Shown piece by piece: positions 19,122 to 63,306 of a stretch of DNA of 64,000 nucleotides. The stretch lies in assembly GCA_000004985.1 (NCBI GenBank), contig GG738846.1; one strand, written 5' to 3'. The translations under genes were made by a program, and so were the position numbers. A model generated the notes under the pieces. It saw nothing but the letters and a program-made list of their open reading frames with translations. It had not been told where the DNA came from and made no database searches. The stretch comes from Naegleria gruberi (lineage: Eukaryota). Numbering within the stretch: the first letter of the stretch is position 1; each line of letters begins with the position of its first letter.

Positions 19122-20840
19122 TCAACGATGGATTTCTTTACAGCTCCAGGTTAGTTTGCTTTCGCCTAAAATTGAAAGTTTTGGAAGAAATTCACCAAGG
19201 TTTGGACAAGAAGATTTCAATCTCTCCTTTTCTGTGTTGTTAAATTGATTAACTTGATGCTCGAAACGTTTAACAATTCTAGGAAACTTTTCACTTAAAT
19301 AAATTAACCATCTATGGAAATACATATAACCATACAATGCCTTAATTGAGGCATGAGTATTACCCTTCATGATTTCAACGACCATAGAATTCATCAGCTT
19401 ACACATGAGATCTGCATAAACGACCCAATTATCAAAATTTGGTTTCTCACAATGATTGTAAACTGTTGGATGAGAATTGTAAATTTCTTGAATTGACTTT
19501 TTCAATCTCTCAAAATTTCCATGTTTTCTATTAATGTAAATTGGAATCCAATGTGTGAATGTTGATCCCCAAACACTCTTTCTGACTCTCTCTTCATAAA
19601 ATGACTTTCTGGAGAGGAGATCGAGTGGTGAGGAGATGGAGGCAACTGTGCCATCTTTCTTCGTTTCGAATGAGAGACCAATACCAAGTATATCCTCCTT
19701 GAAACTTTCTTTCGAATGGTAACAAATTAATTCTCGTGCAGTGGAGAGAAGTTTGTACTCACACAATTCGAGGAGATGTTTGCTTGATTTTTCGACTTTC
19801 TTCAAATCAGAGTGAGTTAAATAGGTGAGAATGTGCAGGAGAATTTCATTTGGAATGTCATTGAATGAAGTGTTTGGAGCTTGAACTCCCTTTTCAACTG
19901 TGCCAACGTTGGTAGTTACATCAACACCAGTATCTTCTGTGAAGATAGAATTGACTAGCTCAGGTGCTGTAGAAGTGGAAGTAGTTACTGGAAGAGGTGT
20001 TGTTGCAGATTCATTTGTAAATTTAACGAAACCCATTTGATTTAGAATTTTGAGGAGGTAATTTTGAATATGTGAAATAATGGATACACTGTATGATAAC
20101 GGAGGTTCAACAGGAGTAGCTAATTCTTCCTTGATTTCTTCCTTTGGTTTAGTTTTCTTTCCAATATCTTCTTGTTCCATTGTTTCAACCTTGACAACTG
20201 ATTTCTTTTTCTTATTCTTCTTTGGCTTGCTAACTAGAGTACTAACTAATTCTTTCTCCTTCTTTGGAACAATAGCTTTCTTAACCACAATTGGTTTTGG
20301 CTCATATTTGGAAGTCAATATTTCATTAACATTCCAATGAGGAGCACACGGATAAACAACGCCATTGGAAGGATCGTGTCCAGTTTCATCAAACTTGAAT
20401 GCTCTGGAAAGCTCAATATCAGCTTGAATGAATCCAGCTTGTCTTTCTTCTTCCTCCAAGAGAAAAGATTGCAATTGAAGCAACACAGACAAACATGAAT
20501 AGCTTGTACTCCATCCCATGTAAGGAACTTGAGAAAAGTGATTACTCTCCAAAATATCCAAACAAATCCAACTTCCAAATACATGTGAGTGATGCAATCT
20601 GGTGAGACAATTAATAGTTGGTGGCTTATTTGGATAATCGAGTGGAAAATCAATTTCCAACAAGAGAATAATTCCACGATACTTGGAAGTTTTTGGAGCT
20701 AGCACAGTTGCGTACCACTTGAATAAATCTCCCTTGAATGGTTCTGCATAGACAGTTTCTAATGGATTCATTTGAATTTCTTTCAAATCTTTCATTAATC
20801 TTTTAAGAACTCGATCTTGCTTGTTGTTGTTTGATAACAT
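19122..20840 (-). CDS. Fusion protein: N-terminal ubiquitin-conjugating (UBC/E2) fold with non-canonical HPN motif, central F-box, C-terminal domain of unknown function
   Basis: 572 aa, single exon. 'PPTINCLTRLHHSHVFGSWICLDILE' aligns to the E2 active-site region (…YHPNINSNGSICLDIL…); Cys is retained and HPN is replaced by HHS. 'IPNEILLHILTYLTHSDLKKV' is F-box-like. Confidence 0.7.
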   Translation of the reverse strand: MLSNNNKQDRVLKRLMKDLKEIQMNPLETVYAEPFKGDLFKWYATVLAPKTSKYRGIILLLEIDFPLDYPNKPPTINCLTRLHHSHVFGSWICLDILESNHFSQVPYMGWSTSYSCLSVLLQLQSFLLEEEERQAGFIQADIELSRAFKFDETGHDPSNGVVYPCAPHWNVNEILTSKYEPKPIVVKKAIVPKKEKELVSTLVSKPKKNKKKKSVVKVETMEQEDIGKKTKPKEEIKEELATPVEPPLSYSVSIISHIQNYLLKILNQMGFVKFTNESATTPLPVTTSTSTAPELVNSIFTEDTGVDVTTNVGTVEKGVQAPNTSFNDIPNEILLHILTYLTHSDLKKVEKSSKHLLELCEYKLLSTARELICYHSKESFKEDILGIGLSFETKKDGTVASISSPLDLLSRKSFYEERVRKSVWGSTFTHWIPIYINRKHGNFERLKKSIQEIYNSHPTVYNHCEKPNFDNWVVYADLMCKLMNSMVVEIMKGNTHASIKALYGYMYFHRWLIYLSEKFPRIVKRFEHQVNQFNNTEKERLKSSCPNLGEFLPKLSILGESKLTWSCKEIHR

Positions 20841-23503: not shown

Positions 23504-25225
23504 TCAACAGATATCAAGTGATGTCAATTGTTTCATTTCAATTATTGATTTGGCTCCTTCATCACCGATTTGATTTCCACTAATATCAAGTGATGTTAAT
23601 TGTTTCATTTCACTTATGAATTTGGCTCCTTCATCACCAATTCGATTGATATAAATACTAAGTGATGTCAATTGTTTCATTTCACAAATTGATTTGGCTC
23701 CTTCATCACCAATTAGATTGTTATAAACACTAAGTGATGTTAATTGTTTCATTTCACTTATGAATTTAGCTCCTTCATCACCAATTTCATTTTCACCAAT
23801 ATTAAGTGATGTCAATTGTTTCATTTCACTTATTGATTTGGCTCCTTCATCACCAATTAGATTGCTATAAACACTAAGTGATGTTAATTGTTTCATTCCA
23901 CTTATGAATTTAGCTCCTTCATTACCAATTTCATTTTGACCAATATTAAGTGATGTCAATTGTTTCATTTCACTTATTGATTTGGCTCCTTCATCACCAA
24001 TTTCATTTTCACCAATATTAAGTGATGTTAACTGTTTCATTTCACTTATTGATTTGGCTCCTTCATCACCAATTTGATTGAAATAAATATCAAGTGATGT
24101 CAATTGTTTCATTTCACTTATTGATTTGGCTCCTTCATCACCAATTAGATTGTTATAAACACTAAGTGATGTTAATTGTTTCATTCCACTTATGAATTTA
24201 GCTCCTTCATCACCAATTTCATTTTGACCAATATTAAGTGATGTCAATTGTTTCATTTCACTTATTGATTTGGCTCCTTCATCACCAATTTCATTTTCAC
24301 CAATATTAAGTGATGTTAACTGTTTCATTTCACTTATTGATTTGGCTCCTTCATCACCAATTTGATTGAAATAAATATCAAGTGATGTCAATTGTTTCAT
24401 TTCAATTATTGATTTGGCTCCTTCATCACCAATTTGATTTTCACCAATATCAAGTGATGTCAATTGTTTCATTTCAATTATTGATTTGGCTCCTTCATCA
24501 CCAATTTGATTGCAAAAAACACTAAGTGATGTTAATTGATTCATTCCACTTATGAATTTAGCTCCTTCATCACCAATTCGATTGTTATAAATACTAAGTG
24601 ATGTTAACTGTTTCATTTCAATTATTGATTTGGCTCCTTCTACACCAATTAGATTTTCACCAATATCAAGTGATGTTAATTGATTCATTCCACTTATGAA
24701 TTTGGCTCCTTCATCACCAATTCGATTGTTATAAACACTAAGTGATTTTAATTGTTTCATTCCACTTATGAATTTAGCTCCTTCATCACCAATTTGATTT
24801 TCACCAATATCAAGTGATGTTAATTGATTCATTTCACTTATTGATTTGGCTTGTTCAAGAGAGTCAAGCAACCTTCTCGAAAATTTAACATTGACAATAC
24901 TATTCATAAATTGACTTTTCATGAATAATTTAATTCGTTTCTCTGTAAATTTTTTGTTAAATTCAATAACGAGTTTTGAACGTTCCTTGATCACATGAAA
25001 GAATTGTTTTGAAATCAAAGAACAATTATTCAAAATAAACCACGAATCATCAATCATGGAAATTATTTCAAAACAAACATCATCCGAAAATATTTCTTGG
25101 AGCACAAGTTTTTTCTTTTTTGTTTTCTCTTCCATGTTATTTTTGATCCGAAATTGCTTTTCAAAATCTTGAATGCTTCGTTTACTCATTTTTTTGTGTT
25201 TGCGAAAATGCCTCAACATTACCAC
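23504..25225 (-). CDS. F-box-like plus RNI-type leucine-rich-repeat protein (about 19 × 24-aa 'LTSLxIxxNxIGDEGAKxISEMKQ' repeats)
   Basis: 573 aa. N-terminal 'VCFEIISMIDDSWFILNNCSLISKQFF' is F-box-like. The long run of near-identical 24-aa LRRs contains the GDEGA motif typical of RNI/NLR-type LRRs. Confidence 0.8.
   Translation of the reverse strand: MVMLRHFRKHKKMSKRSIQDFEKQFRIKNNMEEKTKKKKLVLQEIFSDDVCFEIISMIDDSWFILNNCSLISKQFFHVIKERSKLVIEFNKKFTEKRIKLFMKSQFMNSIVNVKFSRRLLDSLEQAKSISEMNQLTSLDIGENQIGDEGAKFISGMKQLKSLSVYNNRIGDEGAKFISGMNQLTSLDIGENLIGVEGAKSIIEMKQLTSLSIYNNRIGDEGAKFISGMNQLTSLSVFCNQIGDEGAKSIIEMKQLTSLDIGENQIGDEGAKSIIEMKQLTSLDIYFNQIGDEGAKSISEMKQLTSLNIGENEIGDEGAKSISEMKQLTSLNIGQNEIGDEGAKFISGMKQLTSLSVYNNLIGDEGAKSISEMKQLTSLDIYFNQIGDEGAKSISEMKQLTSLNIGENEIGDEGAKSISEMKQLTSLNIGQNEIGNEGAKFISGMKQLTSLSVYSNLIGDEGAKSISEMKQLTSLNIGENEIGDEGAKFISEMKQLTSLSVYNNLIGDEGAKSICEMKQLTSLSIYINRIGDEGAKFISEMKQLTSLDISGNQIGDEGAKSIIEMKQLTSLDIC
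23520..24870. repeat. Tandem 72-bp DNA repeat (about 19 units, very high unit-to-unit identity) encoding the LRR array
   Basis: 'caattgtttcatttca(c/a)ttattgatttggctccttcatcaccaat…' recurs with a 72-nt period. Confidence 0.85.
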
Positions 25226-26355: not shown

Positions 26356-29300
26356 TTGAGTGGAACTACCACTAGTTTAAGACTTGCATGCTACAATGTT
26401 AACGGTCTATACAAGCATGCAGTCCATAAATCTGTAACTCAAGAATTGAAATCTATGTGTTTAACACATGGAGTTCATATGATGAGTATTACAGAAACAC
26501 ACGTTAACACTACTGAATTAGAAATTAAAGTTAGAAATTCTGGTTCAGGTTATTTATTAATTAACTCCCTTATGGGTCGATCTAAAGGCTGTAGTTATGC
26601 ACTTTTTAAATAATCATAGAAAGCGTAACATTACCAATAATAATTTAGTACCTGGAATCTTACAATGGACAAGATTTGAAAGCAGGGGAATTCCAATTAA
26701 TTTATTTACTATTTATTTAAGTGGCAGATCAGATGATTATGAAAATGATCAAGAAGCCATTAACAGTTTTATCAATGCTGTTTTAACATGTAAAGATGAA
26801 CATATTATTTTAAGTGGGGATCTTAATATTGATACTCAAAACCCCACTACTACAAGAGAAAAGGATTGGATTTGGATTCTTGAAATGTTAAAATTGACAG
26901 AATTCAAAACACCAAATTATACATGGATTAGACGAAGTCAGGGAACTTTAAATAGATCTAGACCTGACCATATCTTTGTCTCAAAGAATATTAGAGTGGT
27001 AAAGGAAGTAATTATGACACCTTTGACCACTAATGATCATGTCCCTTTTTATTTAGATTTAGAATCTAATCTTACTTGGAGAACTTACTTTAGTAAGAAT
27101 AAGAGGAAAAGAATGTACGAAGCAATTAATAAGTGTAAAATTGACAATTTTCAAGAGCTGAATCAAGCAATTGAGGCTCAAATAATTAAATATGGATCCA
27201 AAGTAGATAGATTAGGAGTTGGAAGAATTTCTACAGCATTTAAAGAAGAAATTCAAGATTTAGAGGATGAAATATTATCTAAAATTAATAACCCTAATAT
27301 TCCTCAATCAGAAATACAAGAACTACAAACACTCCTAAAAGAAACACATATTAATAATGCAAAAGAAATTAAGGAAAAACTTATAACTCTTCATCGAGAA
27401 TGTATCAATTTGATAAAATGATACACTCTAACCAAATTATGTGGAAAGACCTTAACTTTGAAGAAGAAGAAATAGTGGATTACTTTACAAACAAATTTAC
27501 CTCCACTAATCAACAACCAACATTCACACCAAGTAATTCAACTATCAAAGAAGGTCCAGATTGGAGCAATTCGATTCATATTAAAGAGCTACAAGATGCT
27601 CTCAAACGAATGAAATCAAACACTTCTGGGCCTGATCTAATCTCACTCGATTTAATTAAACATCTTACAGAAGCCAATCAAGGAATCCTCTTAGAAGAAT
27701 ATAATAGATGTTTAAGAGATGGTGATATTCCACAAAATTGGAAACAAGGATGGGTAAAACTCATTCCTAAAAGAGAAATTAATACCTTAAGTGATATTCG
27801 CCCAATTACTATTTTACCAATATTTTACAGAATATTATTTAATATTATAGCATTTAGATTGAGATCTTGGGCATCAACTCATATTAATGTTAGACAACAA
27901 GCATTTATTACAGACAGAAATACTTTGAATCATGGTGTATTACTCTCTGCCTTAGCAATGAAAACAAGGAAAAGGACTTTTATTTTAGTGAATTTAGATA
28001 TAGAAGGGGCGTATGATGCAGTCGAATTACCTGTCATCAAAATGGCCCTAGACCACTGTAAATACCCTTCAGAACTTACTCAATTCATTTTAAATGCTTA
28101 TGCTAACCATGAACTTCAATTAGAAATTGATAATCATCTCTCTGATAAATTTAAGAAAACAAGAGGAATACCACAAGGCTGTCCACTGGCCCCTCTTATA
28201 TACGATTGTATTACCCAATTAATAATTGACAAAGCAATTGATAAGTGGAAGATACCAATCAAACCAGGCAAACTATGTGCAAATGATATTGCACTCTGCT
28301 GTTTTGCTGATGATATGAATGTTGTATGTGACAGATATTCCAAGTATAATGACTAGACAATATTCATGATTGGTTACATCAATTATTATTTAAATTGAAT
28401 GCTAAGAAATCAGTAGCAACTCTATTACCTAAAAAGAGCACAGTCTCACCTAAAATCAAAGGTACTCCAGTACCTAAACAGAAAAACCTTAGAGTACTTG
28501 GCCATTACCCTTGGGATGATACTTTGGTAATACAAGACATCCAATCCAAGATAGACAAATTCTCAAAATCATTAAGATTTTTACCATTATTCAAATTACA
28601 GCCAACAAACCTTAAAATAATTATGCATGCTAAAGCAATCAGCCTATTCACTCACCTCTCAAAAATCAATATAATCCCTTTAAAGAAAGCTCAGGAAATA
28701 GATCGTGCAATTAGAGGTGCAATCAGACGTAAATTATTAATGGACAGAGCAACTCCAACAAGTTTCTTTCACCTGCCATTAGAAGAAGGTGGATTAGGAT
28801 TACCATCAATTGAGGAATTCTCTGAAAGAATGAATTTAAGAACTATGAATTTAATCGCCAATAATAAGAATAAGTTAATAAGAAAAGCTTTCAAATATGG
28901 TATCAAACATTGTGAGGAAACTAAAGATAATATTTATGCTAAATGGTTATCTGTACTTAAAGAATATAATCTCACATTTGTGCAGAATGATACGAAATTT
29001 AGAATAGCCAAAATCAAAACAGGGAATAGTTTCGATATCCATACAGATGGATCTAGAATTAATCAAAAGACAGGAATGGGTATTAATATTTATGATACCT
29101 CAAATAGATCAGTTCCTTGTAAAACTTTATCCCTCAGAATCAATAATCATTATTCAAATAATATAGCCGAAATATGCTCCATAATAACTTCTATTAATGT
29201 AATCCCACGAAACTCTAAAGTTACCATTCATACAGATAGTGAAGTTGCAATAGAAGTTCTCAAAGATAGATACAAAGGAGATTTTCTAACATTAAAAGAA

Positions 29301-29924
29301 GCCTTCTTTAGAACAACCAAAAATAGAAAAATAGAATATGAAATTAAGAAAGTTGAAGCACACAAAGATAGCGAGAATATCAAGGTTGATTTAATAGCAA
29401 AGAATGCTACAACCAGAGAGGATATTTTTGATATTCGTAATTTACTCAAGAATCAACACCTCCTTGTTAAGGATGGTGTTGTCGTCTTCAATCATAAGAA
29501 GATGACCATAACAAGACATTTAAGTGTAAGACATAATAAGATGAATGAAAACCCTAACTTTATTCTAAACCAAAGTTGGGATTCTCTTAATGTGCAATAC
29601 CTTAAAACTCGTCTTACTCCTAAAACTAAATACTTTATATGGAGAAATTCCATCAATGCCCATATCAATTTTGGTAAGGGTAAAAGTTTCTGTTACGATT
29701 GTGGTACAGAATCTGATTTATTCCATTACATTCATGAGTGCCCTGGCTTGGATAGTGCCAGGTATTTTTGTAAATCAAAGATATCTGATATTCTTGAAGG
29801 GAGAGAGTGCTTACTTTCTCATTTTCAATTCAAACCAGAAAAGCACCACCATGCATTACATTTCCATCATAACGGAATCACCTCTTTGGAAGATGGATAC
29901 ATGCAATTCCATAAAGATACATAA
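26356..29924 (+). mobile_element. Non-LTR (LINE) retrotransposon ORF2, degenerate: APE endonuclease, reverse transcriptase, RNase H, C-terminal CCHC zinc knuckle; broken into 4 ORFs by at least 3 frameshifts
   Basis: 'LACYNVNGL…' and 'TNDHVPFYLDLE' are APE N- and C-terminal motifs. 'SDIRPITILPIFYRIL…IPQGCPLAPLIYD…CFADDMNVVC' are RT motifs including YxDD→FADD. 'FDIHTDGSRIN…EICSII…KVEAHKD' is RNase H. 'CYDCGTESDLFHYIHECPG' is the zinc knuckle. Frames change at about 26600, about 27410 and about 28360. Confidence 0.85.
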
Positions 29925-30151: not shown

Positions 30152-32880
30152 TTACAATTGCTCTAGTTTTTCTCTTTCTTGTAATTTCTTTAGCTTTTCT
30201 AATAGATTAATGGTTGGTAAATCTGCCTTTCCATTTTGAATTGTTCTATCCAAGAATTCATTCAACAATCCACATGCTTCTTCATATTTCTTGTCAAAGA
30301 ATAAATTACAAGCAGCTCCATAGGATTGCCAAAGATTTCTCTTCTTCTTTTCCTCCAATTCATACATCCATTCTAATATTTGATTAATTTCGAGTGAATT
30401 TTAAAATATACTTACCATCTTCTTTAACTTCCATAAAATCTCCAAATTCATAAACATTCACTTCAGTAATTTGCTTTGAGGACAAAGGAGTATAACTTTC
30501 TGGAATGTTGTTACCATACTCTGGTGACTTTAAGAATGCCCAATTCTTGTTAAGCGACTTGTCTAGCTCAGGAATTCCATATTGTTGTTCCGTTAAGAAA
30601 TTAAGTGTATCGATAAATCTGTGTTGATAGAAATTATGAGTTTTTGCCTTAATTTCTTCAGAGACTACAATTTCAATGTTCAAATTAACAGCAAGATCCA
30701 ACATGGAAAGTATATTTCTTTGGAAGCTACCAACAATTGTAAAATTCTTAAAATCATTAGTACCCAAGTTACCACAACAAACAGCTTGGGAGAGAACTGC
30801 AACTCTAAAAGTTTGTGCCTTATCGGTCGCTTCTGGATTAATGGCCTTCTTTAATGGTAATAAACCATTAAGCTTTCTAACAATAGCATAAGCAAATGTT
30901 ATAGATTTCTTTTCTGGGGCTGCTGTGTCAATATTAGAATTGAATGAAATAGTGATAGTCTCATTATCAAAATTACCAACAGAACCTCCATGTATCTTAC
31001 TCATATCATATACATATTTGAAAATTTCACTTAAAACAGTTACAGTTTCAGAGTAAGAATTGTTGGCAATACATGCGCTCATTCCTTCAATATGTAAACA
31101 AGCAAAACCAACTTTTCTTTTATCCAAATGAAGGGCAAATCTTGCTAAAATATCAATTGGTTGTTGAGTTTGAGATTGTTTTTTCGTAGTACTTCCAATG
31201 CTTGAAAAACTGCTAGAAGCGTCTTCCTTAACTAGTTTTGCAATAGAGTAAGCACTTTTAGATTGAGGTTGGGAATCTTTTGATCTTCTACTTTTATCAA
31301 CTTCTTCACCTCCATCAATCTTTGAAATCAAGTGACTTGGAATAAAGCTATTTCAAAAATTGTTTAGTCATGTTGACACTTAGTGATAACTTACCATCTA
31401 TAAAGCTTAATCCTGTCAACCATCCCCTTAAAGTGTCCTTGAAGAATGACAACTTCTCTGAACAATGAATTTCTAAATTCTAATCCTTCCAATTTCATTT
31501 CAGAAACTTCACTAAAATTGAAAATCAACTCATAGAATGGTTGAATAATTTTAAATGAAATATAAACACCGAAGATTATACTAATAATGATAATCAAAAG
31601 ACTTATACCAAGAGCAATTCCTACAGCCATGAAAATTGTTGTTAAATAGTTTGATGTTGGTTCAGCAAAGACAAGCAGCCAATCCACATTTTCTTCGGTA
31701 CATAGCCGATACATTGAGAGGTAGTAACCCTCAACTTCTAACATAATCATTTTGTTTCTTTCAATTACTTGCAAGTCTGGATATAAAGAGTATAAACTCT
31801 TTCCAATAAGATTAGTTCCCTTATCACGGACTGTGATTGCTGTAAGTCTGGTTTCTTGTTGTTGTTCATCCCAAACAGCTACAGAAACTTCTGGATCATA
31901 ATCTATATAGAGAGTAAGTAGATCAAATGCCTCAATAAATACTTACTAGATATCAAGTAATTAGTGCTCACTTCAATAGTAAAGGCAATAGCTCCATCAA
32001 TCTCTCGTGTTGCTAGGGATAGGTATTTTGAAAATGATTCTACTGAAACATCATACCCAATCCAAAAGGCGTAATCAGAAGGGTCAGATGTATTTTTCAC
32101 CATTGACAAGAGAGTGATAAAAGTAATGCTAGGTAATGTGATGTCAGCATAACTCATTGTAAATCTAGTTCCGTTTGGAGCTGCTCTAGCAGTGTCCCAT
32201 ATATCATTCATATCAATAGGATCCAGCACTACATCAAATGGAGCTGAATGATTTCTCTCACAATGATCGTAAAGCTCATAATCGGAACAGTACCAATAGG
32301 AGTCTTCGAGGAAAGAGACAATCATGGTTTCATTAAGCTGAAACACACCAAAATTATATCTAGTGTGATCACCAATAAAAAGTGTGAGAGGAAGAGAGGG
32401 ATGTCGCTTAATTTCATTCTTAAAAAGTTTGAACATGTGCTTCTCTACGAGAGCGGTATCATAAGGATCGAACCCATCTGATAATATTTCCTTCTCCGTT
32501 TCGACAACAAGCATGAGTTCTTTAAGTGTGGAATGTGTAAATTGCACAATATTATCAAAACCCTTCTCTCTCACTGATGAACCCCACTTGAGCATGTATG
32601 GAAGAAAACAAGATATCCACACACTTGACAATACCAGCACTGTTAATATTTCTAAGAAAGCAACCAACAATATCAAACATGTCTTGATAGAAATTTTGGA
32701 ACGAGATGGAGGTTCTTGATGATGAGTACCAAATTCATCATTCGTATTGTAGACAATATCTGGCAATGCCCTTGAACGTTGCTTTTTAAGATTGCTTTTA
32801 GGAGTATCAGCCATCGACTGCTGAGAAGAGGAAAAGTGTTGCTCTGATAATTGATGTGCAAGTGGATGAACTTTTGGCAT
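30152..32880 (-). CDS. Receptor-type class III nucleotidyl-cyclase-like membrane protein, 4 exons; metal-binding motif degenerate (possible pseudo-cyclase)
   Basis: Exons 32880..31947, 31902..31395, 31347..30416 and 30372..30152. Introns of 44, 47 and 43 nt all begin gtaagt and end (t/c)ag. Topology is TM (31..), extracellular domain, TM ('LTTIFMAVGIALGISLLIIIISIIFGVYI'), then a cyclase-homology domain. 'RKVGFACLHIEGMSAC' sits where the canonical 'VTxLFxDIVGFT' lies, and 'FRVAVLSQAVCCGNLG…FTIVGSFQRNILSMLDLA' sits where 'RIGIHTGPVVAGVVG…FGDTVNxASRMES' lies. Confidence 0.55.
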
Positions 32881-34022: not shown

Positions 34023-35420
34023 ATGAAAATAATTCTCATCACTATGTACATTCACTTAGTAACAACAACAACAGATGGTAGTGGCAATGAACAAAAGCTG
34101 AGGATATGTATGATTTCCGATTTCTTTTATCCAGGCTTTGGAGGAGTAGAATCACACATCTATTGTATATCAACAGGATTAATTAAAAGAGGGCACAAGG
34201 TTATTGTCATTACAACATCCTATGATGATCGGAAAGGTGTAAGATATTTAACGAATGGAATTAAAGTTTATTACATTCCTGTATTTAAAATTAATACATC
34301 TGCTGGCAGTGCAACATTACCGTTCATCTTTACTTCTTTACCACTGTTGAGAAATATTCTGATCAGGGAGAGAATTGAAATTGTGCATGGACATCAATGT
34401 ACATCCAATGTTTGTAATGAAGGACTCTTACATGCAAGAACCATGGGACTGAAATGTTTTTTCACTGATCATTCATTGTTTGGATTTGGAGATGAAGGAG
34501 GAGTACACATCAATAAGGTTTCTAGGTTTGTATTGAGTGAAGTGGATCATGTAATTTGCGTTTCACATACGCTGAAGGAAAATCTGACCCTTCGAGCATC
34601 TTTGAATCCATTCAAAACTACTGTCATACCACATGCTGTAGATACGAACGTATTCAAACCACTTAGAACGCACCCACCAAGAAGGGATGAAAGACTTAAA
34701 ATTGTATCAACATCAAGATTAGTTTACAGGAAGGGAGCGGATTTGCTGATTTCTATCATTCCTGTAATTTGTACAAAGTACCCACATGTGGATTTTATCA
34801 TTGCTGGAGATGGACCAAATTTAATTGAAATGACTGAAATGATTGAAAGATATGAACTATTTGACAGAGTGGAATTATTGGGAGCAAAACCTTATCATGA
34901 GATTCCTAGCGTTCTTCAAAGAGGTCACCTCTTCTTGAATACAAGTCTAACTGAGGCATTTTGCATGGCAATTTTGGAAGCAGCTAGTTGTGGACTTTTT
35001 GCTGTCAGTACAAATGTTGGTGGAGTAAGGGAAGTATTGCCAGACAATGACATGGTTTTATTGGCAAATCCAGATCCACTCTCTTTATGCGAAGCTATGG
35101 AAAAAGCCATTGAATGTCATGTTTATAATACTGACCCAATTCAAACGCATGAACGTGTATGCGAAATGTATAATTGGGATAAGGTAGTTGCATGTACAGA
35201 AGCTCTATACGTAGAATCCATGCATACATGTAAGGAGAGAGGCCTATTGGAAACCATCACATCTTACAACTCTGTTGGTTTCTTCCATGGAAAAATTATT
35301 GGACTTCTTACAACTCTGGACTATCTATTTTATCAAGCTCTTGAATACATGTATCCCAGAGAGGAAATAGATGTATGCCCAGAATTTGGTCCTTTCTACC
35401 TTAAAGATGTTAACGATTAA
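34023..35420 (+). CDS. PIGA: Phosphatidylinositol N-acetylglucosaminyltransferase catalytic subunit (PIG-A/GPI3, GT4 family), first step of GPI-anchor synthesis
   Basis: '[60 protein letters not shown]' matches the PIG-A N-terminus (…[34 protein letters not shown]…). The GT4 '[14 protein letters not shown]' E-x7-E region is present. Confidence 0.9.
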   Translation: [465 protein letters not shown]

Positions 35421-56923: not shown

Positions 56924-59206
56924 ATGTCCGATAGAGTGGTACTTGGTTTCATGTCCGATTCTTGTGTGAATCATCAACAAGATGAAGAAGAATTAATGAA
57001 TGATGAGGAGGAAGAGGATTTTGAATTGATGGAATGTATCAAGTGTTTTAATAAGAATGACAGTAGGAAGTTAAATGGCAATAACAATAGAAATTCAATA
57101 ATTGAAAATAATTTGACAAGTGGAGAGAGTTTTAATGGGTTTAATAATGTGAATAGGCCTTCAACAAGACCATTTGAGGATTTTTTCAATATCTTTTTTA
57201 ATTATGGAGCCAAGGATACATTTGATAATATTCAGACAAATACTGAACAGGAAAAGGTTCATCGATCATCAATTTCAAATAAGGAATATAGAAGAATAAG
57301 AAAGAAGGTGCTTGAAAGAGTGCTAAAACAATTGAAAACCAATGGGGAAACTAGTATGGTCATTCCAAAGAGGAGAGAAATTAAGGATATTATGGATACC
57401 ATGTTTGCAAGATCGAATGGGTACAGTTTAAAGGTTGTTGCCTACTCGTTTAGAAAAGTTTGGACAAAAATATTTAGAGATATTGTTGAATCTGGAATGG
57501 ATTCAAAATTGAAGACCATTAAGAAACTCTATCCAAATGATACAGTTGTATATGTTCCAAATCATAGAAGTTATATGGATTTTCTCTTGTTGAGCTATGT
57601 TTGTTTCCTTTGTAAAGTTTATCCAATTCCAAATATTATTGCTGGAGAAGATTTCCTTCAAATGATGCTTGTGAGTGATGTAATGAAACATTGTGGTGCT
57701 TTATTTATGAAGAGACAGTTCAATGATCAACCAGTTTACAAGACTGTTTTTAAGGAATATATTTGTACCTTGTTGGAGGAAGGAAGCTTTTTGGAATTCT
57801 TTGTGGAGGGAACCCGTTCAAGAAATGGCAAAACCTACCATCCCAAGTTTGGTATACTTAATCTTGTGATTGATGCTTATATGCAAAAGAGAGTGAGTAA
57901 TATTGTGTTTGTTCCAGTCTATGTCAGTTATGAATCCATGATGGAATCTCAATCACACGTACGAGAAATGCTTGGTGAATCAAAAAAGAAGGAAACCACA
58001 GCAAATATGATTACTGGACTATTGGATTCAATTACAACCAATTTTGGAGATATTGCTCTCAAGATTGGAGATCCAATTTCCTTATCATCCTTCCTTGCAG
58101 ATCCTAACAATGAAGGTTTAAGAAAGAATAGAAGAGAATTGTCATCTCAATTGGGGTTCTCCATTACCAAATCATTGAATGATAATTATACATGTCTTTC
58201 CTCTCATATTATTTCTTCATTATTATTACAATATTTGGGAGATGTTAGATTGGCAGATAAGAGATGTACAATTCCATTTTCCACGCTCATTGAGAAGGTA
58301 TCATGGCTGAAGGACGAAATCCAAAGACGAAACGTTCCTCTTTATTTAAATGAAGCTGAAAGAATGCCAAATCAAATGATTGAAAGAACATTACAAGTTT
58401 TTAAAGGGCACGTTGAAATGAAAGGATTATCCATTAGAGTGAAAAGTCCAAGAGATTTCCTCTTACTTAGCATTTACAAAAATTCTCTGGCTCCAGTTTT
58501 TACAAAAGAGTCCCTTTTATTGTGTGCTCTTCATTCGCTGAGATTGAAGGATGTTAACTTTGAGGAAATTGTCGAGTTGGAAACTCAACCATTTGATATT
58601 GAGGAATGGAAGGAGAGATGTTCAGTGTTGGGAGAATTATTAAGCTTGGAAATTCATCCTCAAGACATGTTAGATTCGAGTGAGAGATTTAATTCGACAT
58701 TATCAGATATGGAGGAAAGAGGAATTTTAACTTGTCAAAAAGTGGAAGGAGGCAAAATTTCTGTCAAGATTAATAATTTGGGATATTTTGAATTTGTCTG
58801 TTCATTGCTCTGGCCATCTATTGATACATATTCGATAATTATTGGGTATTGTTGTTTGATTGCCAACAGAGGAACTATCCATTCATTTGCTTTGGATAAG
58901 TTTGTTAAGAGTTGTCATGAATTTCTTGAAAAACTCTATCACGAAACAAGTGTGCCTTTCTATGAATCTGTCTCTGTATTGACTATTAGAAATGTTATTT
59001 CAAGATATTCCACATGGAATATTTTACATCGAGTGAGTGTGAATAATGTAAATACCATTCAAATTTCTGAATATTATGCCAATCAACCTTCAGAAATTAG
59101 AGAATGGTGGGATATTATTTCACTCTATGCCAAGTACAAGCAAAAGGAGAACTTTTTTGATTTGTATATTGACTTTGTTCCAGTGAATAGAATTTCAAAA
59201 TTGTAA
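56924..59206 (+). CDS. GNPAT: Dihydroxyacetone-phosphate acyltransferase (GNPAT/DHAPAT; GPAT/PlsB-type acyltransferase) with C-terminal PTS1 tripeptide SKL, so peroxisomal
   Basis: 760 aa, single exon. Acyltransferase motif I is 'VPNHRSYMDFLLLSY' (HxxxxD). Motif III is 'FFVEGTRSRNGK'. Motif IV is 'IVFVPVYVSYE'. The protein ends '…PVNRISKL*', a PTS1. Confidence 0.85.
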   Translation: MSDRVVLGFMSDSCVNHQQDEEELMNDEEEEDFELMECIKCFNKNDSRKLNGNNNRNSIIENNLTSGESFNGFNNVNRPSTRPFEDFFNIFFNYGAKDTFDNIQTNTEQEKVHRSSISNKEYRRIRKKVLERVLKQLKTNGETSMVIPKRREIKDIMDTMFARSNGYSLKVVAYSFRKVWTKIFRDIVESGMDSKLKTIKKLYPNDTVVYVPNHRSYMDFLLLSYVCFLCKVYPIPNIIAGEDFLQMMLVSDVMKHCGALFMKRQFNDQPVYKTVFKEYICTLLEEGSFLEFFVEGTRSRNGKTYHPKFGILNLVIDAYMQKRVSNIVFVPVYVSYESMMESQSHVREMLGESKKKETTANMITGLLDSITTNFGDIALKIGDPISLSSFLADPNNEGLRKNRRELSSQLGFSITKSLNDNYTCLSSHIISSLLLQYLGDVRLADKRCTIPFSTLIEKVSWLKDEIQRRNVPLYLNEAERMPNQMIERTLQVFKGHVEMKGLSIRVKSPRDFLLLSIYKNSLAPVFTKESLLLCALHSLRLKDVNFEEIVELETQPFDIEEWKERCSVLGELLSLEIHPQDMLDSSERFNSTLSDMEERGILTCQKVEGGKISVKINNLGYFEFVCSLLWPSIDTYSIIIGYCCLIANRGTIHSFALDKFVKSCHEFLEKLYHETSVPFYESVSVLTIRNVISRYSTWNILHRVSVNNVNTIQISEYYANQPSEIREWWDIISLYAKYKQKENFFDLYIDFVPVNRISKL

Positions 59207-60597: not shown

Positions 60598-63306
60598 TTA
60601 ACTCAAATCCATATTGTACAAGTAAATATTATTATTCAATCCATGAGAAGCAGCAATCCAATTAAGGTATTGATAAGTATTTCCAGAAGCTCCTCCAAAT
60701 GCGGCATTGAACCAATCAACATTGGTCATTGGTGAAAAATCTCCAGCAGTAATAGTGGCATTATTATTTTGAGTTGAGCTGTACAAATCTTTTGTCATGA
60801 GACAATGTGTTGGGCTATTGTGCAGGAGAGAAAATATGACACCTGGATAGTTGAGAACGAACATTCTTTCACTCGTGGAACAGAGTCCAATTCTAGTATC
60901 AATCCAATTGGCATGCTGTTTTTCAGACCCAAATGCTACTGGATTTTGTAATTGAATTTGATTCAAAACCTTGCCAGTATTGTGAATTGACCATTCAATG
61001 AGTTTACCATCAGACCCACAAGTTAGTACAGAGGTTTCATTTTCACTGAAATGAACATTTGTAACTTCACCATCGTGAGCCTTCCAAGTCCAAAATGGTT
61101 GCTGTTGTTTTGAGGCAGTGTCGAAAATTCTCACAAACCCATCACTACCAGCAGTAGCTATCATTGTTCCGTTATGATTAAATTTGATGTCGAGTATTGG
61201 TACAGATTTTGGTTGAATGACAAACTTGTTTTCCAGCTTCATTTGGTTCAAATTGTAGCCTAAAAGCATTCCTGAAACTGATGAACTTGGTGAGCTATTT
61301 CCCCCAGCTGATGATGGTAATATTGGTACAGGTGTGTTGCTTCCAGAGTCTGACTTTTGATAGCTTGAGCAACTGACAACACAATAATCACTATTTCTGA
61401 TTGTAGATCCGCAACATGCAATAGCATTGACCTTTGGGAAGAATATTTCAGTGCAAAACTCTCCTGTACATTTTCTCTTATCCAAATCCAAAATTTTAAC
61501 CTTTCTATTGTTCAATCCACAAACTACCATATTATTGGATGATCCTTTCTTTCCATTTGATGCGCTCCACCAATCAAGACACATGGCCTTGGTTCCACAT
61601 TCATAGGTTTGAATTGAAGTAACAGAATTTGAATTATTATTTCCAGAAAGTGACCAAATTCTGACTGTATTATCCTTTGAACTGGATGCTAAATATTTTC
61701 CATCTTGTGAAAATTTCAGTGATGTGATATAATCCTTATGACCTGTAAAAACCTTGACAGGATAAACAGGTTTCAAATTAAATAATTGAATATTGTCAAA
61801 TACACTGGTTGTACTTTGTTCAGTCGGAGTTGTACTATTATTGGTTGTATTTGGTGAGCTTGGTGAGAGGGTAGGCTTTTGTGGAGTCACCAATGAGCTA
61901 TTACTGCTATTATTACTCTGCCTCACTGAGGAAATATTGAGAGAGGAGAAGGATTGATGGAAGGACTTGTTTCTAGGAGTCTTATTGCCCATTGCAACTG
62001 TCGAATCAGTATTTACGCTTTCCTGTGGTAAATCAGAAATGTCCAAAGTACTACCATTTGAAGGGATACTTGTTTCTCTTCTATTAATTCCAACTTCTTG
62101 TTCCAATTTGGAAATGTACGCCTCTGCAGCTAACAATTTGCTTTTCAGAGTTTCATTTTCACTAATTAAAACATCCAATTTCTTCTTGAGGACATTCATT
62201 CTATCTCTCTTCTCTGATTCCATCAAGAGTAGAGTTGGTTTCTCAACAGACATGATGGCAGTGGCTATGAAATTTTGTACACAAACATATAACATTTCTG
62301 CCCATTTGTGATTAAAGAATGGTTCAAGCTCTGGTACAAATTGTTCAATAATTGTCAAGACATTGGAATGTGATTGTAAGAGTGGTGCATTAGATTCTCT
62401 TCTTTCTCTTTCGGTCATACTGCCAGATGTTGAACTATCCATTCCATCCAAATTGCCAGATGATCTAGAAGCTGAATGAGTAGAAGTAGCCACGGTCTGA
62501 GCTAGCAAGTACGGCAAGGCAAACCATGGTCTCCATTCTTGTTCCTGTATTAATTCATGACCGAATCGTTCGAAAAATTCTCTACATTCTTTAATTCTTC
62601 TATTTTGTGCACAATTCACAACATAGTACTTTTTCAATGATTGTTCTAATTTTCTAATAGTTTCATAGTAGGATGATGTTGATGATGAGGCATGTCTTCC
62701 GAGGAGTGAACCAATCGGAGCCACATTACTGCTCACATTATTAGATGATGCAGAGGAAGAAGAGGAAGGCATCATCATGGATTGTGTTGAATTTCCACCT
62801 CCTGTTGATGAATTTGATGTCGTATTGCTATTCAAATCATTCACCGATGAAGAAACATTGAGTGATGAAGATGATATAACATTTCCACTCATCAAATCAA
62901 GTTGAGAACTCGAGGAAGAAAGACCACCTATTGTTGATGATGATGATGATGAAGTAGCATCAATATTAGAGGAGGATCCACCAATAGTATTACCACTACC
63001 TTGTTGTTCATATTGATCAGATGATTGTGAAGAAGCCTTTTGAAATCCACTCGATTCATATAATTTAGGAAAGAAATTCTTCTCCAAATACTTCCAATAA
63101 TCCATGAATGATTGAATATCATAGCTTTTTAAAAAGGTAAATAATTGGTCTGCAATCCTATCCGTTTGGAAAGCCTTGTTTTTATCTAATTTACGATCCG
63201 TTTCAAAATTGGTGAGAGTTCTCGTAAAACCTCTCCATGATAAATATTCCTTGATGAGTAAATCACAATGAATGATGGAATTGTCATCATCTAATTGTGA
63301 AGGCAT
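60598..63306 (-). CDS. WDR91: WDR91 orthologue (endosomal Rab7/PI3K-regulating WD40 protein): N-terminal WDR91 domain, coiled coil, long S/N-rich insert, C-terminal WD40 propeller
   Basis: 'IKEYLSWRGFTRTLTNFETDRKLDKNKAFQTDRIADQLFTFLKSYDIQSFMDYWKYLEKNFFPKL' parallels human WDR91 '[65 protein letters not shown]'. C-terminal 'DGFVRIFD…WKAHDGEVTNVHFSENETSVLTCGSDGKLIEWSIHNTGKV' parallels 'DGVIRLFDM…[41 protein letters not shown]'. Confidence 0.85.
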   Translation of the reverse strand: MPSQLDDDNSIIHCDLLIKEYLSWRGFTRTLTNFETDRKLDKNKAFQTDRIADQLFTFLKSYDIQSFMDYWKYLEKNFFPKLYESSGFQKASSQSSDQYEQQGSGNTIGGSSSNIDATSSSSSSTIGGLSSSSSQLDLMSGNVISSSSLNVSSSVNDLNSNTTSNSSTGGGNSTQSMMMPSSSSSASSNNVSSNVAPIGSLLGRHASSSTSSYYETIRKLEQSLKKYYVVNCAQNRRIKECREFFERFGHELIQEQEWRPWFALPYLLAQTVATSTHSASRSSGNLDGMDSSTSGSMTERERRESNAPLLQSHSNVLTIIEQFVPELEPFFNHKWAEMLYVCVQNFIATAIMSVEKPTLLLMESEKRDRMNVLKKKLDVLISENETLKSKLLAAEAYISKLEQEVGINRRETSIPSNGSTLDISDLPQESVNTDSTVAMGNKTPRNKSFHQSFSSLNISSVRQSNNSSNSSLVTPQKPTLSPSSPNTTNNSTTPTEQSTTSVFDNIQLFNLKPVYPVKVFTGHKDYITSLKFSQDGKYLASSSKDNTVRIWSLSGNNNSNSVTSIQTYECGTKAMCLDWWSASNGKKGSSNNMVVCGLNNRKVKILDLDKRKCTGEFCTEIFFPKVNAIACCGSTIRNSDYCVVSCSSYQKSDSGSNTPVPILPSSAGGNSSPSSSVSGMLLGYNLNQMKLENKFVIQPKSVPILDIKFNHNGTMIATAGSDGFVRIFDTASKQQQPFWTWKAHDGEVTNVHFSENETSVLTCGSDGKLIEWSIHNTGKVLNQIQLQNPVAFGSEKQHANWIDTRIGLCSTSERMFVLNYPGVIFSLLHNSPTHCLMTKDLYSSTQNNNATITAGDFSPMTNVDWFNAAFGGASGNTYQYLNWIAASHGLNNNIYLYNMDLS

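What the first reader, a model, noticed from the sequence alone, without database searches (positions are those of the whole stretch)
30152..32880. Receptor-type class III cyclase-like gene (4 exons) whose catalytic metal-binding Asp motif appears to be missing
Spliced via three 43–47-nt introns, the gene gives a protein of about 880 aa with TM, ectodomain, TM, then a cyclase-homology domain. This architecture resembles the receptor adenylyl/guanylyl cyclases of protists. 'KVGFACLHIEGMSAC' occupies the position of the 'FxDIxGFT' first metal-binding Asp, and no Asp is present there. A second region 'FRVAVLSQAVCCGNLG…FTIVGSFQRNILSMLDLA' loosely follows the 'IGIHxGxVVAGVVG…GDTVNxASRME' motifs. 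The protein could be a pseudo-cyclase or regulatory receptor, or an obligate heterodimer partner.
Basis: partly seen in the sequence, partly recalled or inferred. Interest (0 to 1): 0.5.

Follow-up and report, generated by a model that had tools for sequence, protein, structure and literature searches.

The report
Catalytically dead receptor cyclase, Naegleria
This is an intact, apparently unannotated Naegleria gruberi gene for a membrane receptor whose intracellular domain has the adenylyl/guanylyl cyclase fold but lacks most residues needed to make cAMP or cGMP; it belongs to a large amoeba family of such "pseudo-cyclases".

Summary
A minus-strand gene (32880→30152) has four exons and three GTAAGT…TAG introns of 44, 47 and 43 nt, and encodes 864 aa. 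The order is TM1, a 305-aa ectodomain, TM2, a HAMP-like segment, a YRCFIPSHLI motif, a low-complexity linker, a cyclase-homology domain (CHD) and a helical tail.

Pfam misses the CHD, but four other lines support it:
- Exon 3 alone reaches bona fide PF00211 proteins (E 1e-4 to 3.5e-4 across 1.8 billion proteins).
- The family profile hits solved class III cyclases (CyaB, E 8.7e-12).
- hhalign against true CHDs gives 99.6% probability, E 1.8e-23.

Catalytic positions: metal Asp1→His566, Asp2→Glu610, substrate Lys→Asn606, transition-state Arg→Met696. Thr684 is kept, and probably Asn692.

About 60 relatives in Naegleria, Willaertia and metagenome contigs share the pattern: never an acidic residue at Asp1, never Arg in the HMMER register.

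Because both half-sites are defective, complementation with a partner to give one active site is not supported. The best reading is a non-catalytic receptor pseudo-cyclase. A dominant-negative partner role and residual activity remain rivals.

The window is N. gruberi, since the neighbouring PIG-A is 100% identical. No database protein exceeds 38% identity to this gene.

The parts
30152..32880 (-). Whole gene, ATG 32880 to stop 30154-30152; 864-aa product after splicing
31947..32880 (-). Exon 1 (934 nt): N-terminal cytosolic tail, TM1 and most of the ectodomain
31903..31946 (-). Intron 1, 44 nt, GTAAGT...TAG, phase 1 in codon 312. Same position and phase as the annotated intron of N. lovaniensis homolog P0007
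31395..31902 (-). Exon 2 (508 nt): end of ectodomain, TM2, HAMP-like segment
31348..31394 (-). Intron 2, 47 nt, GTAAGT...TAG. Splicing rebuilds the family motif YR|CFIP
30416..31347 (-). Exon 3 (932 nt): FIPSHLI motif, low-complexity linker and the whole pseudo-cyclase domain
30373..30415 (-). Intron 3, 43 nt, GTAAGT...TAG. Splicing rebuilds the family motif D|EWMYEL
30152..30372 (-). Exon 4 (221 nt including stop): EWMYEL motif and helical, TPR-like C-terminal tail (residues 792-864)
32605..32685 (-). TM1 (about residues 66-92)
   Evidence: hydropathy
31646..32604 (-). Ectodomain (about residues 93-397; interrupted by intron 1). Four N-x-S/T sequons. Conserved Cys198, Cys207 and Cys379. No recognisable Pfam or PDB family
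31553..31645 (-). TM2 (about residues 398-428)
31326..31552 (-). HAMP-like segment plus conserved YRCFIPSHLI motif (residues 429-488; interrupted by intron 2). It aligns with the TM2-proximal segment and 'FMKYIPKEIV' of true cyclase P0002
   Evidence: HAMP match only E 0.07
31161..31325 (-). Ser/Lys/Gln-rich low-complexity linker (residues 489-543) between the FIP motif and strand beta1. A variable low-complexity stretch sits here in the aligned family members that cover the region; true cyclase P0002 has only about 25 aa between the IP motif and beta1
30417..31160 (-). Degenerate class III cyclase-homology domain (residues 544-791), with a roughly 45-aa low-confidence insert before the last strand
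31092..31094 (-). His566 codon, at the position of metal-binding Asp 1 (FSDIxGFT)
30972..30974 (-). Asn606 codon, at the position of the substrate-specifying Lys
30960..30962 (-). Glu610 codon, at the position of metal-binding Asp 2 (IGD)
30738..30740 (-). Thr684 codon: class IIIb-type substrate Thr, retained
30702..30716 (-). Asn692...Met696. Asn aligns with the catalytic Asn if one residue is inserted (HMMER); hhalign's gapless register puts Arg691 there. The catalytic Arg position is Met696 (HMMER) or Ser695 (hhalign)

Best explanation
SHOWN. The gene encodes a type-III-topology membrane receptor of Naegleria gruberi. The order is a cytosolic N-tail, TM1, a 305-aa extracellular domain, TM2, a HAMP-like segment, a conserved YRxFIPxHLL motif, a disordered linker, a class III (IIIb-like) cyclase-homology domain and a helical tail. 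The CHD keeps the fold and the structural motifs (GG, GNxG(T/S), K/R-x-(F/Y)-T, the Asn). It has lost the first metal-binding Asp (His566), the substrate Lys (Asn606) and the transition-state Arg (Met696), and has Glu for the second Asp. The same losses characterise the roughly 60 relatives examined here (of 69 hits, a handful being true cyclases), from Naegleria, Willaertia and unnamed metagenome contigs. These relatives share their own conserved motifs: G-x-F-E-N, F-N, C-G-N-x-G-T and DEWMYEL.

INFERRED. The protein cannot make cAMP or cGMP by the canonical two-metal mechanism. It most likely works as a non-catalytic receptor (a pseudoenzyme). On this reading, ligand binding to the ectodomain is passed through TM2 and the HAMP-like segment to a dimer of pseudo-CHDs. 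That dimer and its C-terminal helical tail then serve as a conformational or binding output, possibly holding a nucleotide in the remodelled former active-site pocket, rather than synthesising a second messenger. Conservation across many paralogs and two genera argues for a selected function and against decay.
For: Gene model.

Homology to CHD:
- Exon 3 alone hits P0062, P0065, P0066 and P0068 at library-wide E 1e-4 to 3.5e-4. These are bona fide PF00211 proteins (Pfam E 8.5e-24 to 1e-27; three carry Pfam HAMP matches, two above threshold).
- tblastn of P0065 and P0066 against the window hits 31124-30627 at E 1.6e-9 and 1.2e-7.
- The family profile against PDB gives CyaB 8.7e-12, Cya2 1.3e-10 and CyaC 4e-8.
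- hhalign against true CHDs gives probability 99.55%, E 1.8e-23.

Catalytic positions. Asp1 is acidic in 0 of 59 members. The Arg position is L/M/I/V in all 58. Lys is rare.

Family breadth and taxa. The shared ectodomain/TM/HAMP-like architecture within the family is shown, and with a true Naegleria cyclase (pairwise E 1e-10).

Against: - No activity, binding or expression data exist for this gene or any relative.
- Glu610, together with the conserved acidic residue two positions upstream (Asp608; acidic in 52 of 60 members), could in principle still bind metal.
- The Asn and Thr are retained, so some nucleotide chemistry is not excluded.
- The query departs from its own family at two near-invariant positions: His of 'HEEKA' is Pro625, and one conserved ectodomain Cys is Arg360.
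- It is absent from the public protein sets and abuts a retrotransposon. This particular copy could therefore be drifting.
- The output mechanism (scaffold or nucleotide pocket) is inference only.
- Dimerisation was not modelled.
Confidence: 0.6

Rival explanations
1. Dominant-negative or modulatory heterodimer partner. The pseudo-CHD subunit pairs with a canonical Naegleria receptor cyclase through the TM/HAMP-like/FIP-motif region and the CHD interface. Each class III active site needs the two Asp from one chain and Lys/Thr/Asn/Arg from the other. Such a heterodimer would therefore have both sites crippled, which would tune cAMP output down or reshape it.
For: - The family shares the ectodomain/TM/HAMP-like scaffold and the 'IP' motif with a true cyclase, P0002.
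- Naegleria carries many membrane cyclases: at least 81 in the pangenome study PMC9928731.
- The CHD fold, and hence a potential dimer interface, is well preserved.
Against: - Ectodomain identity to the true cyclase is only 22%.
- The family is a large expansion with its own co-conserved ectodomain type, which suggests self-standing receptors.
- No cyclase gene lies nearby.
- There is no evidence for heterodimers.
- A 55-aa disordered linker separates the transducer motif from the CHD.
Confidence: 0.17
2. Still an active nucleotidyl cyclase, or another nucleotidyl-transferase, with a rebuilt metal site. The conserved acidic pair on the beta2-beta3 hairpin (Asp608 and Glu610 here; 'FEND' in relatives) would replace the lost beta1 Asp. 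The retained Thr684 and Asn692 would hold the substrate.
For: - The residue two positions before Asp2 is acidic in 52 of 60 members. Both positions are acidic in 31 of 59.
- 'FEN', 'FN', Asn692 and Thr/Ser684 are conserved rather than drifting.
Against: - The first Asp is never acidic.
- The transition-state Arg is always hydrophobic in the HMMER register.
- The substrate Lys is nearly always lost.
- Asp2 itself is Asn, Gly or Gln in about a third of members.
- To my knowledge no class III cyclase is active without both Asp.
Confidence: 0.08
3. This copy is a young pseudogene or a non-functional paralog. It would be an intact-looking but unexpressed duplicate beside a retrotransposon, slowly losing family-invariant residues.
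For: - It is not present in the public N. gruberi protein set, although the neighbouring PIG-A is 100% identical to the N. gruberi protein.
- Pro625 replaces a His found in 56 of 59 members, and Arg360 replaces a conserved Cys.
- A non-LTR element sits about 140-230 bp from its 3' end.
Against: - A 2595-nt frame in 32% GC DNA is uninterrupted across four exons.
- There are three canonical splice-site pairs.
- Nearly all other family motifs are intact.
Confidence: 0.1

Closest known systems
Class IIIb nucleotidyl cyclase catalytic domains (P. aeruginosa CyaB 3r5g; Synechocystis Cya2 2w01; Spirulina CyaC 1wc0/1wc1)
   Same: - Profile E 8.7e-12 to 1e-7.
- Shared GG, GN(F/I)G(S/T), (F/Y)-T and Asn motifs, including the IIIb-type substrate Thr.
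   Different: - Metal Asp1 is His, Asp2 is Glu, substrate Lys is Asn, and transition-state Arg is Met.
- There is a one-residue insertion before the Asn.
- There is a roughly 45-aa insert before the last strand, and no 'KGK' motif.
- It falls below every Pfam PF00211 threshold.
Canonical Naegleria receptor-type adenylate/guanylate cyclases (e.g. N. lovaniensis C9374_014075, P0002)
   Same: The architecture is the same: N-tail, TM, ectodomain, TM, HAMP-like segment, (Y/F)IP motif, CHD and a helical TPR-like tail. The ectodomain-to-FIP region aligns at pairwise E 1e-10.
   Different: P0002 has FSDIKNFT, DKYIGD and GDHVNLASRLE intact, and is listed with a precomputed PF00211 domain. The focal protein lacks these residues and carries a 55-aa low-complexity insert between the FIP motif and the CHD.
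Pseudo-heterodimeric cyclases (mammalian tmAC C1/C2; soluble guanylyl cyclase alpha/beta)
   Same: They contain CHDs that have individually lost catalytic residues, and they have a degenerate second pocket used for regulation (the forskolin site). This rests on established knowledge; the fold match is.
   Different: In those enzymes each chain keeps one complete half-site, so one active site forms. Here both half-sites are defective in the same chain, and this holds across the family.
Inactive CHD / degenerate cyclase-fold receptors (P. aeruginosa 'class III adenylyl cyclase-like ATP-binding protein' 6yii; LapD/PelD-type degenerate GGDEF receptors)
   Different: There is no detectable sequence relationship (neither appears among the hits). 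They are bacterial and have different domain contexts. Nucleotide binding by the Naegleria domain is untested.

Membership tests
Class III cyclase-homology domain (PF00211 superfamily) | Statistically significant sequence or profile similarity to bona fide CHDs | tested here: met
   - Exon 3 to P0062/65/66/68: E 1e-4 to 3.5e-4 library-wide. These are PF00211 proteins at E 8.5e-24 to 1e-27.
- Family profile against PDB cyclases: down to 8.7e-12.
- hhalign: 99.55% probability, E 1.8e-23.
- Note: direct Pfam hmmscan of the protein gives no PF00211 hit even at E<=10.
Class III cyclase-homology domain (PF00211 superfamily) | The CHD fold | tested here: met
   - AF2 with a 40-sequence alignment: pLDDT 84.8.
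- The 50 Foldseek hits listed are all class III cyclases.
Catalytically competent class III cyclase | Two metal-binding Asp (beta1 'F-x-D-I-x-G-F-T' and 'I-G-D') | tested here: not met
   His566 and Glu610 occupy these positions. In the family the first position is acidic in 0 of 59 members.
Catalytically competent class III cyclase | Substrate-specifying Lys (AC) or Glu (GC), and Asp/Thr (AC) or Cys (GC) | tested here: not met
   The Lys position is Asn606. It is mostly S or N in the family and K in only two members. Thr684 is retained (IIIb type).
Catalytically competent class III cyclase | Transition-state Asn and Arg ('V-N-x-A-S-R') | tested here: not met
   The Arg position is Met696 in the HMMER register or Ser695 in the hhalign register. 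The family has L/M/I/V in all 58 members in the HMMER register. The Asn is inconclusive: Asn692 aligns only with a one-residue insertion. It is N in 49 of 59 members.
Catalytically competent class III cyclase | Measured cAMP or cGMP synthesis | not testable with these tools
   This needs an enzyme assay.
Naegleria receptor-type cyclase architecture | TM, ectodomain, TM, juxtamembrane transducer, CHD, helical tail | tested here: met
   Hydropathy gives two TM segments. The ectodomain-to-FIP region aligns with P0002 at E 1e-10. The architecture is shared by the family.
Naegleria receptor-type cyclase architecture | Recognisable HAMP domain (PF00672) | tested here: inconclusive
   There is no Pfam hit. 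hhalign of the family N-terminal profile against the HAMP of P0068 gives E 0.07 at the expected place. The PDB profile gives NarQ at E 0.15.
Complementing half-site subunit (tmAC C1/C2, sGC alpha/beta type) | At least one complete half-site: either both Asp, or Lys + Asp/Thr + Asn + Arg | tested here: not met
   Both halves are incomplete.
Naegleria/Willaertia pseudo-CHD receptor family (delimited here) | Motif set YRxFIPxHLL, FxLxLE, G-x-F-E-N, F-N, HEEK, C-G-N-x-G-T, K-x-F-T, N, R and DEWMYEL, with the shared ectodomain | tested here: met
   All are present except that His of HEEK is Pro625 and FEN is FDN. The ectodomain matches family members at E down to 7e-75.

The most novel reading that the evidence does not exclude
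The Naegleria/Willaertia family would be a eukaryotic class of receptor pseudo-cyclases. Its former active-site pocket has been rebuilt (conserved F-E-N, F-N, GNxGT, Thr, Asn). On this reading the pocket binds, rather than makes, a nucleotide or cyclic nucleotide. That would couple an extracellular ligand domain to intracellular second-messenger sensing, an amoeba counterpart of LapD/PelD-type degenerate-cyclase receptors. A further possibility is that the pocket carries out a different nucleotidyl-transfer reaction.
Probability: 0.15. Interest if true: 0.7.

Novelty: new variant of a known kind. Interest (0 to 1): 0.42.

Why it matters
Naegleria genomes are noted for very large numbers of membrane adenylate/guanylate cyclases: at least 81 in the pangenome study PMC9928731, and I recall about 108 from the genome paper. 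These counts are taken as a measure of environmental-sensing capacity.

If a sizeable clade of these 'cyclases' cannot cyclise, then counts of cAMP-generating receptors are inflated. This clade comprises dozens of 50%-identity clusters, variously labelled 'predicted protein', 'adenylate/guanylate cyclase' or 'guanylate cyclase domain-containing protein'. A second, non-catalytic signalling mode would then exist in these amoebae, including the pathogen N. fowleri.

The finding also flags an apparently unannotated, intact 4-exon gene in the reference N. gruberi genome.

It is not a new fold or a new principle. Pseudoenzymes and degenerate cyclase domains are well known.

Tried and rejected
- Pfam hmmscan of the whole protein at E<=10 gave no cyclase, HAMP or TPR hit.
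- phmmer against PDB gave nothing.
- A word-indexed homolog search with the C-terminal 322 aa gave nothing.
- The spliced protein could not be submitted to the exhaustive search, so the exon 3 translation was used instead.
- Single-sequence AlphaFold gave pLDDT 34 and was useless. It was redone with the family alignment.
- The ectodomain family profile against PDB gave no significant match, so the sensor fold is unidentified. A Cache-like fold is only a guess.
- The HAMP test was inconclusive.
- Look-ups of N. gruberi genomic loci for paralogs (P0001, P0017) and for the window's PIG-A failed. A N. lovaniensis locus was used instead.
- The AFDB fold library was unavailable.
- Literature searches for pseudo-cyclase, inactive CHD or Naegleria cyclase catalytic residues found nothing relevant.
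- The idea of a nearby partner cyclase was rejected: tblastn with true CHDs finds only this gene in the window.
- The idea that conserved HEEK, K-x-F-T and R are a new active site was rejected: they correspond to ancestral CHD structural motifs (dHa..Av, R-x-x-Y-T, F..R) seen in true cyclases.
Full report
OBSERVATION

The feature is a minus-strand gene. Reading the reverse strand and splicing at three GTAAGT...TAG introns gives an uninterrupted 2595-nt CDS and an 864-aa protein. The introns are 31946-31903 (44 nt), 31394-31348 (47 nt) and 30415-30373 (43 nt).

Each intron would truncate the protein if retained: the ORFs listed end inside or at the introns. Three independent checks support the junctions.
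- Junction 2 rebuilds 'YR|CFIP', which is the family consensus YRxFIPxHLL.
- Junction 3 rebuilds 'D|EWMYEL', the family consensus DEWxYEL.
- Junction 1 aligns without a gap to N. gruberi relative P0001. It lies at the same aligned residue and in the same phase (phase 1, codon 312) as the only annotated intron of N. lovaniensis homolog P0007 (phase 1, codon 307, 58 nt).

Hydropathy gives two membrane segments, residues 61-97 and 397-434. The TM-ectodomain-TM layout is therefore real.

ORIGIN

The neighbouring single-exon ORF at 34023-35417 is 100% identical to the Naegleria gruberi PIG-A protein, so the window is N. gruberi. Two searches found no protein more than 38% identical to the focal gene: a word-indexed search with the spliced protein and an exhaustive HMMER scan with exon 3. 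The gene therefore appears to be missing from the public N. gruberi protein set. This is an inference from absence.

IS THE C-TERMINAL DOMAIN A CYCLASE-HOMOLOGY DOMAIN?

Single-sequence tools say no. Pfam finds nothing even at E<=10, and PDB phmmer finds nothing. Deeper evidence says yes.

(a) The exhaustive scan with exon 3 found 69 representatives. Most are relatives of the same kind. The list also includes P0062, P0065, P0066 and P0068 at library-wide E 1e-4 to 3.5e-4. These are bona fide PF00211 proteins (Pfam E 8.5e-24 to 1e-27; three carry Pfam HAMP matches, two above threshold) with canonical motifs. tblastn of P0065 and P0066 hits window 31124-30627 at E 1.6e-9 and 1.2e-7.

(b) A 40-sequence domain alignment (A2) searched as a profile against PDB gives class III cyclases only at the top: CyaB 3r5g 8.7e-12, Cya2 2w01 1.3e-10, CyaC 4e-8, then PACs and mammalian AC5 C1.

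(c) hhalign of A2 against an alignment of six true CHDs (A3) gives 99.55% probability and E 1.8e-23 over 183 columns.

A few close relatives have sub-threshold PF00211 matches: P0037 at 20.9 bits and P0010 at 16.5 bits, against a cut-off of 21.9.

CATALYTIC POSITIONS

HMMER, MAFFT and hhalign agree on the register through beta1 and the beta2-beta3 hairpin.
- 'ACLHIEGMS' lies opposite 'FFSDIRGFT', so metal Asp1 is His566.
- 'GGSVGNFDNETITISFN' lies opposite 'GGTIDKFVGDCVMVFFG', so the substrate Lys is Asn606 and metal Asp2 is Glu610.
- In the third motif, 'NFTIVGSFQRNILSMLD' lies opposite 'DYTIIGREVNLASRLE'. The class IIIb-type substrate Thr is kept (Thr684).

The family has one extra residue before the Asn. 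HMMER absorbs this with a gap, so Asn692 equals the catalytic Asn and Met696 takes the Arg position. hhalign's gapless register instead puts Arg691 and Ser695 there. The Arg is lost in either register. The Asn is probably kept, because that column is N in 49 of 59 relatives.

Across the family the pattern is as follows.
- Asp1 is never acidic (Y17, H13, K8, L7, F5 and others).
- Lys is almost never K.
- Asp2 is D in 25, E in 10, N in 10 and G in 9.
- The Arg column in the HMMER register is L/M/I/V in all 58.

Family-specific conserved features are an acidic residue two positions before Asp2 (52 of 60), Asn before Asp2 (45 of 59), 'FN' in place of 'FG' (57 of 59) and Cys before GNxG. Other conserved residues (HEEK, K-x-F-T, R724) correspond to ancestral structural motifs of true CHDs. 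They are not evidence of a new active site.

THE REST OF THE PROTEIN

The ectodomain, TM2 and juxtamembrane region align with a true N. lovaniensis cyclase, P0002, at pairwise E 1e-10. The alignment ends at 'LYRCFIPSHLI' opposite 'FMKYIPKEIV'. They align with family members at E down to 7e-75.

The ectodomain has conserved cysteines and four sequons but no recognisable Pfam or PDB family. The juxtamembrane segment is HAMP-like in position and pattern, but this is not statistically supported (E 0.07).

Between the FIP motif and beta1, the aligned family members that cover this region carry a variable Ser/Lys/Gln-rich insert, about 55 aa here. P0002 has only about 25 aa between the IP motif and beta1. 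If the FIP motif corresponds to the cyclase-transducer element of canonical enzymes (my recollection, not tested), this insert would loosen the mechanical coupling into the CHD.

The tail after DEWMYEL is helical. Relatives give only weak TPR hits.

FAMILY

Named members come from N. gruberi (at least nine paralogs seen), N. fowleri, N. lovaniensis and Willaertia magna. Unnamed members come from metagenome contigs. Source labels range from 'predicted protein' to 'adenylate/guanylate cyclase' and 'Guanylate cyclase domain-containing protein'. I found no paper in the searchable library that discusses their catalytic state. PMC9928731 simply counts at least 81 Naegleria cyclases.

MECHANISM

It is established that class III active sites form at the dimer interface. 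The two Asp come from one chain, and the Lys, Asp/Thr, Asn and Arg come from the other. The focal protein lacks essential residues of both half-sites.

From this I infer two things.
- A homodimer cannot catalyse by the canonical two-metal route.
- A heterodimer with a canonical subunit would have both sites impaired. The mammalian C1/C2-type 'complementing partner' idea therefore fails, and only an inhibitory or modulatory partnership remains possible.

Several observations favour a self-standing non-catalytic receptor. The family is a large expansion with its own co-conserved ectodomain. The fold is preserved. Some pocket residues are selectively retained while others drift. On this reading the pseudo-CHD dimer and tail are the output, perhaps with a bound nucleotide. 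PDB 6yii, a class III cyclase-like ATP-binding protein, is a precedent. These steps are inferences.

RIVALS

- Dominant-negative partner, about 0.17.
- Residual or altered catalysis through the Asp608/Glu610 acidic pair, about 0.08.
- This copy is a drifting paralog, about 0.10. Support for this: Pro625 replaces a near-invariant His, Arg360 replaces a conserved Cys, the gene is unannotated, and a non-LTR element is adjacent.

VERDICT

The heterodimer-complementation alternative is not supported.

It is a new variant of a known kind: a lineage-specific clade of catalytically degenerate class III cyclase receptors. Interest is moderate.

Noticed in passing
window 26597-29924 (+): A non-LTR retrotransposon is present. 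Three consecutive ORFs in different frames carry an endonuclease (Exo_endo_phos_2, E 6.7e-6), a reverse transcriptase (RVT_1, E 2.8e-22) and RNase H (E 5e-11). It ends about 140-230 bp from the focal gene's stop codon, tail to tail. The frame changes suggest a decayed copy or programmed frameshifts.
   Followed up: partly
window 30152-32880 (-): The focal gene seems to be absent from public N. gruberi protein sets. The best database identity is 38%, although the adjacent PIG-A ORF (34023-35417) is 100% identical to the N. gruberi protein. It is probably an unannotated gene.
   Followed up: partly
window 30915-30917 (codon Pro625) and codon Arg360 in exon 2: The focal protein departs from its own family at two near-invariant positions. 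The His of 'HEEKA' (H in 56 of 59) is Pro625. One of four conserved ectodomain cysteines is Arg360, which leaves an odd number of conserved ectodomain Cys.
   Followed up: partly
P0001 (N. gruberi predicted protein, 567 aa): The public model of this N. gruberi relative jumps from TM2 straight into the middle of the pseudo-CHD. It lacks the HAMP-like segment, the linker and beta1, and it ends at 'DEWM'. It looks like a mis-predicted gene model with skipped exon sequence and a missing last exon.
   Followed up: no
window 31161-31325 (-) and the equivalent region in relatives: A variable Ser/Lys/Gln-rich low-complexity insert lies between the conserved YRxFIPxHLL motif and the first strand of the pseudo-CHD in the aligned family members that cover the region. 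True cyclase P0002 has about 25 aa between the IP motif and beta1. It may be a phospho-regulatory or decoupling linker.
   Followed up: no
A1 members: Three of the 70 proteins in the alignment of hits (69 hits plus true cyclase P0002) carry a NIT (nitrate/nitrite sensing) domain, best E 1.1e-30. One carries a BTB domain. Which proteins these are, and whether their CHDs are active or degenerate, was not determined.
   Followed up: no
window 60598-63306 (-), 56924-59206 (+), 23504-25225 (-), 19122-20840 (-): The surrounding genes are ordinary eukaryotic genes: a WD40/CTLH protein, a GPAT-type acyltransferase, an LRR protein and a UBC + F-box fusion ORF. There is no other cyclase-domain gene in the 64-kb window.
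   Followed up: partly
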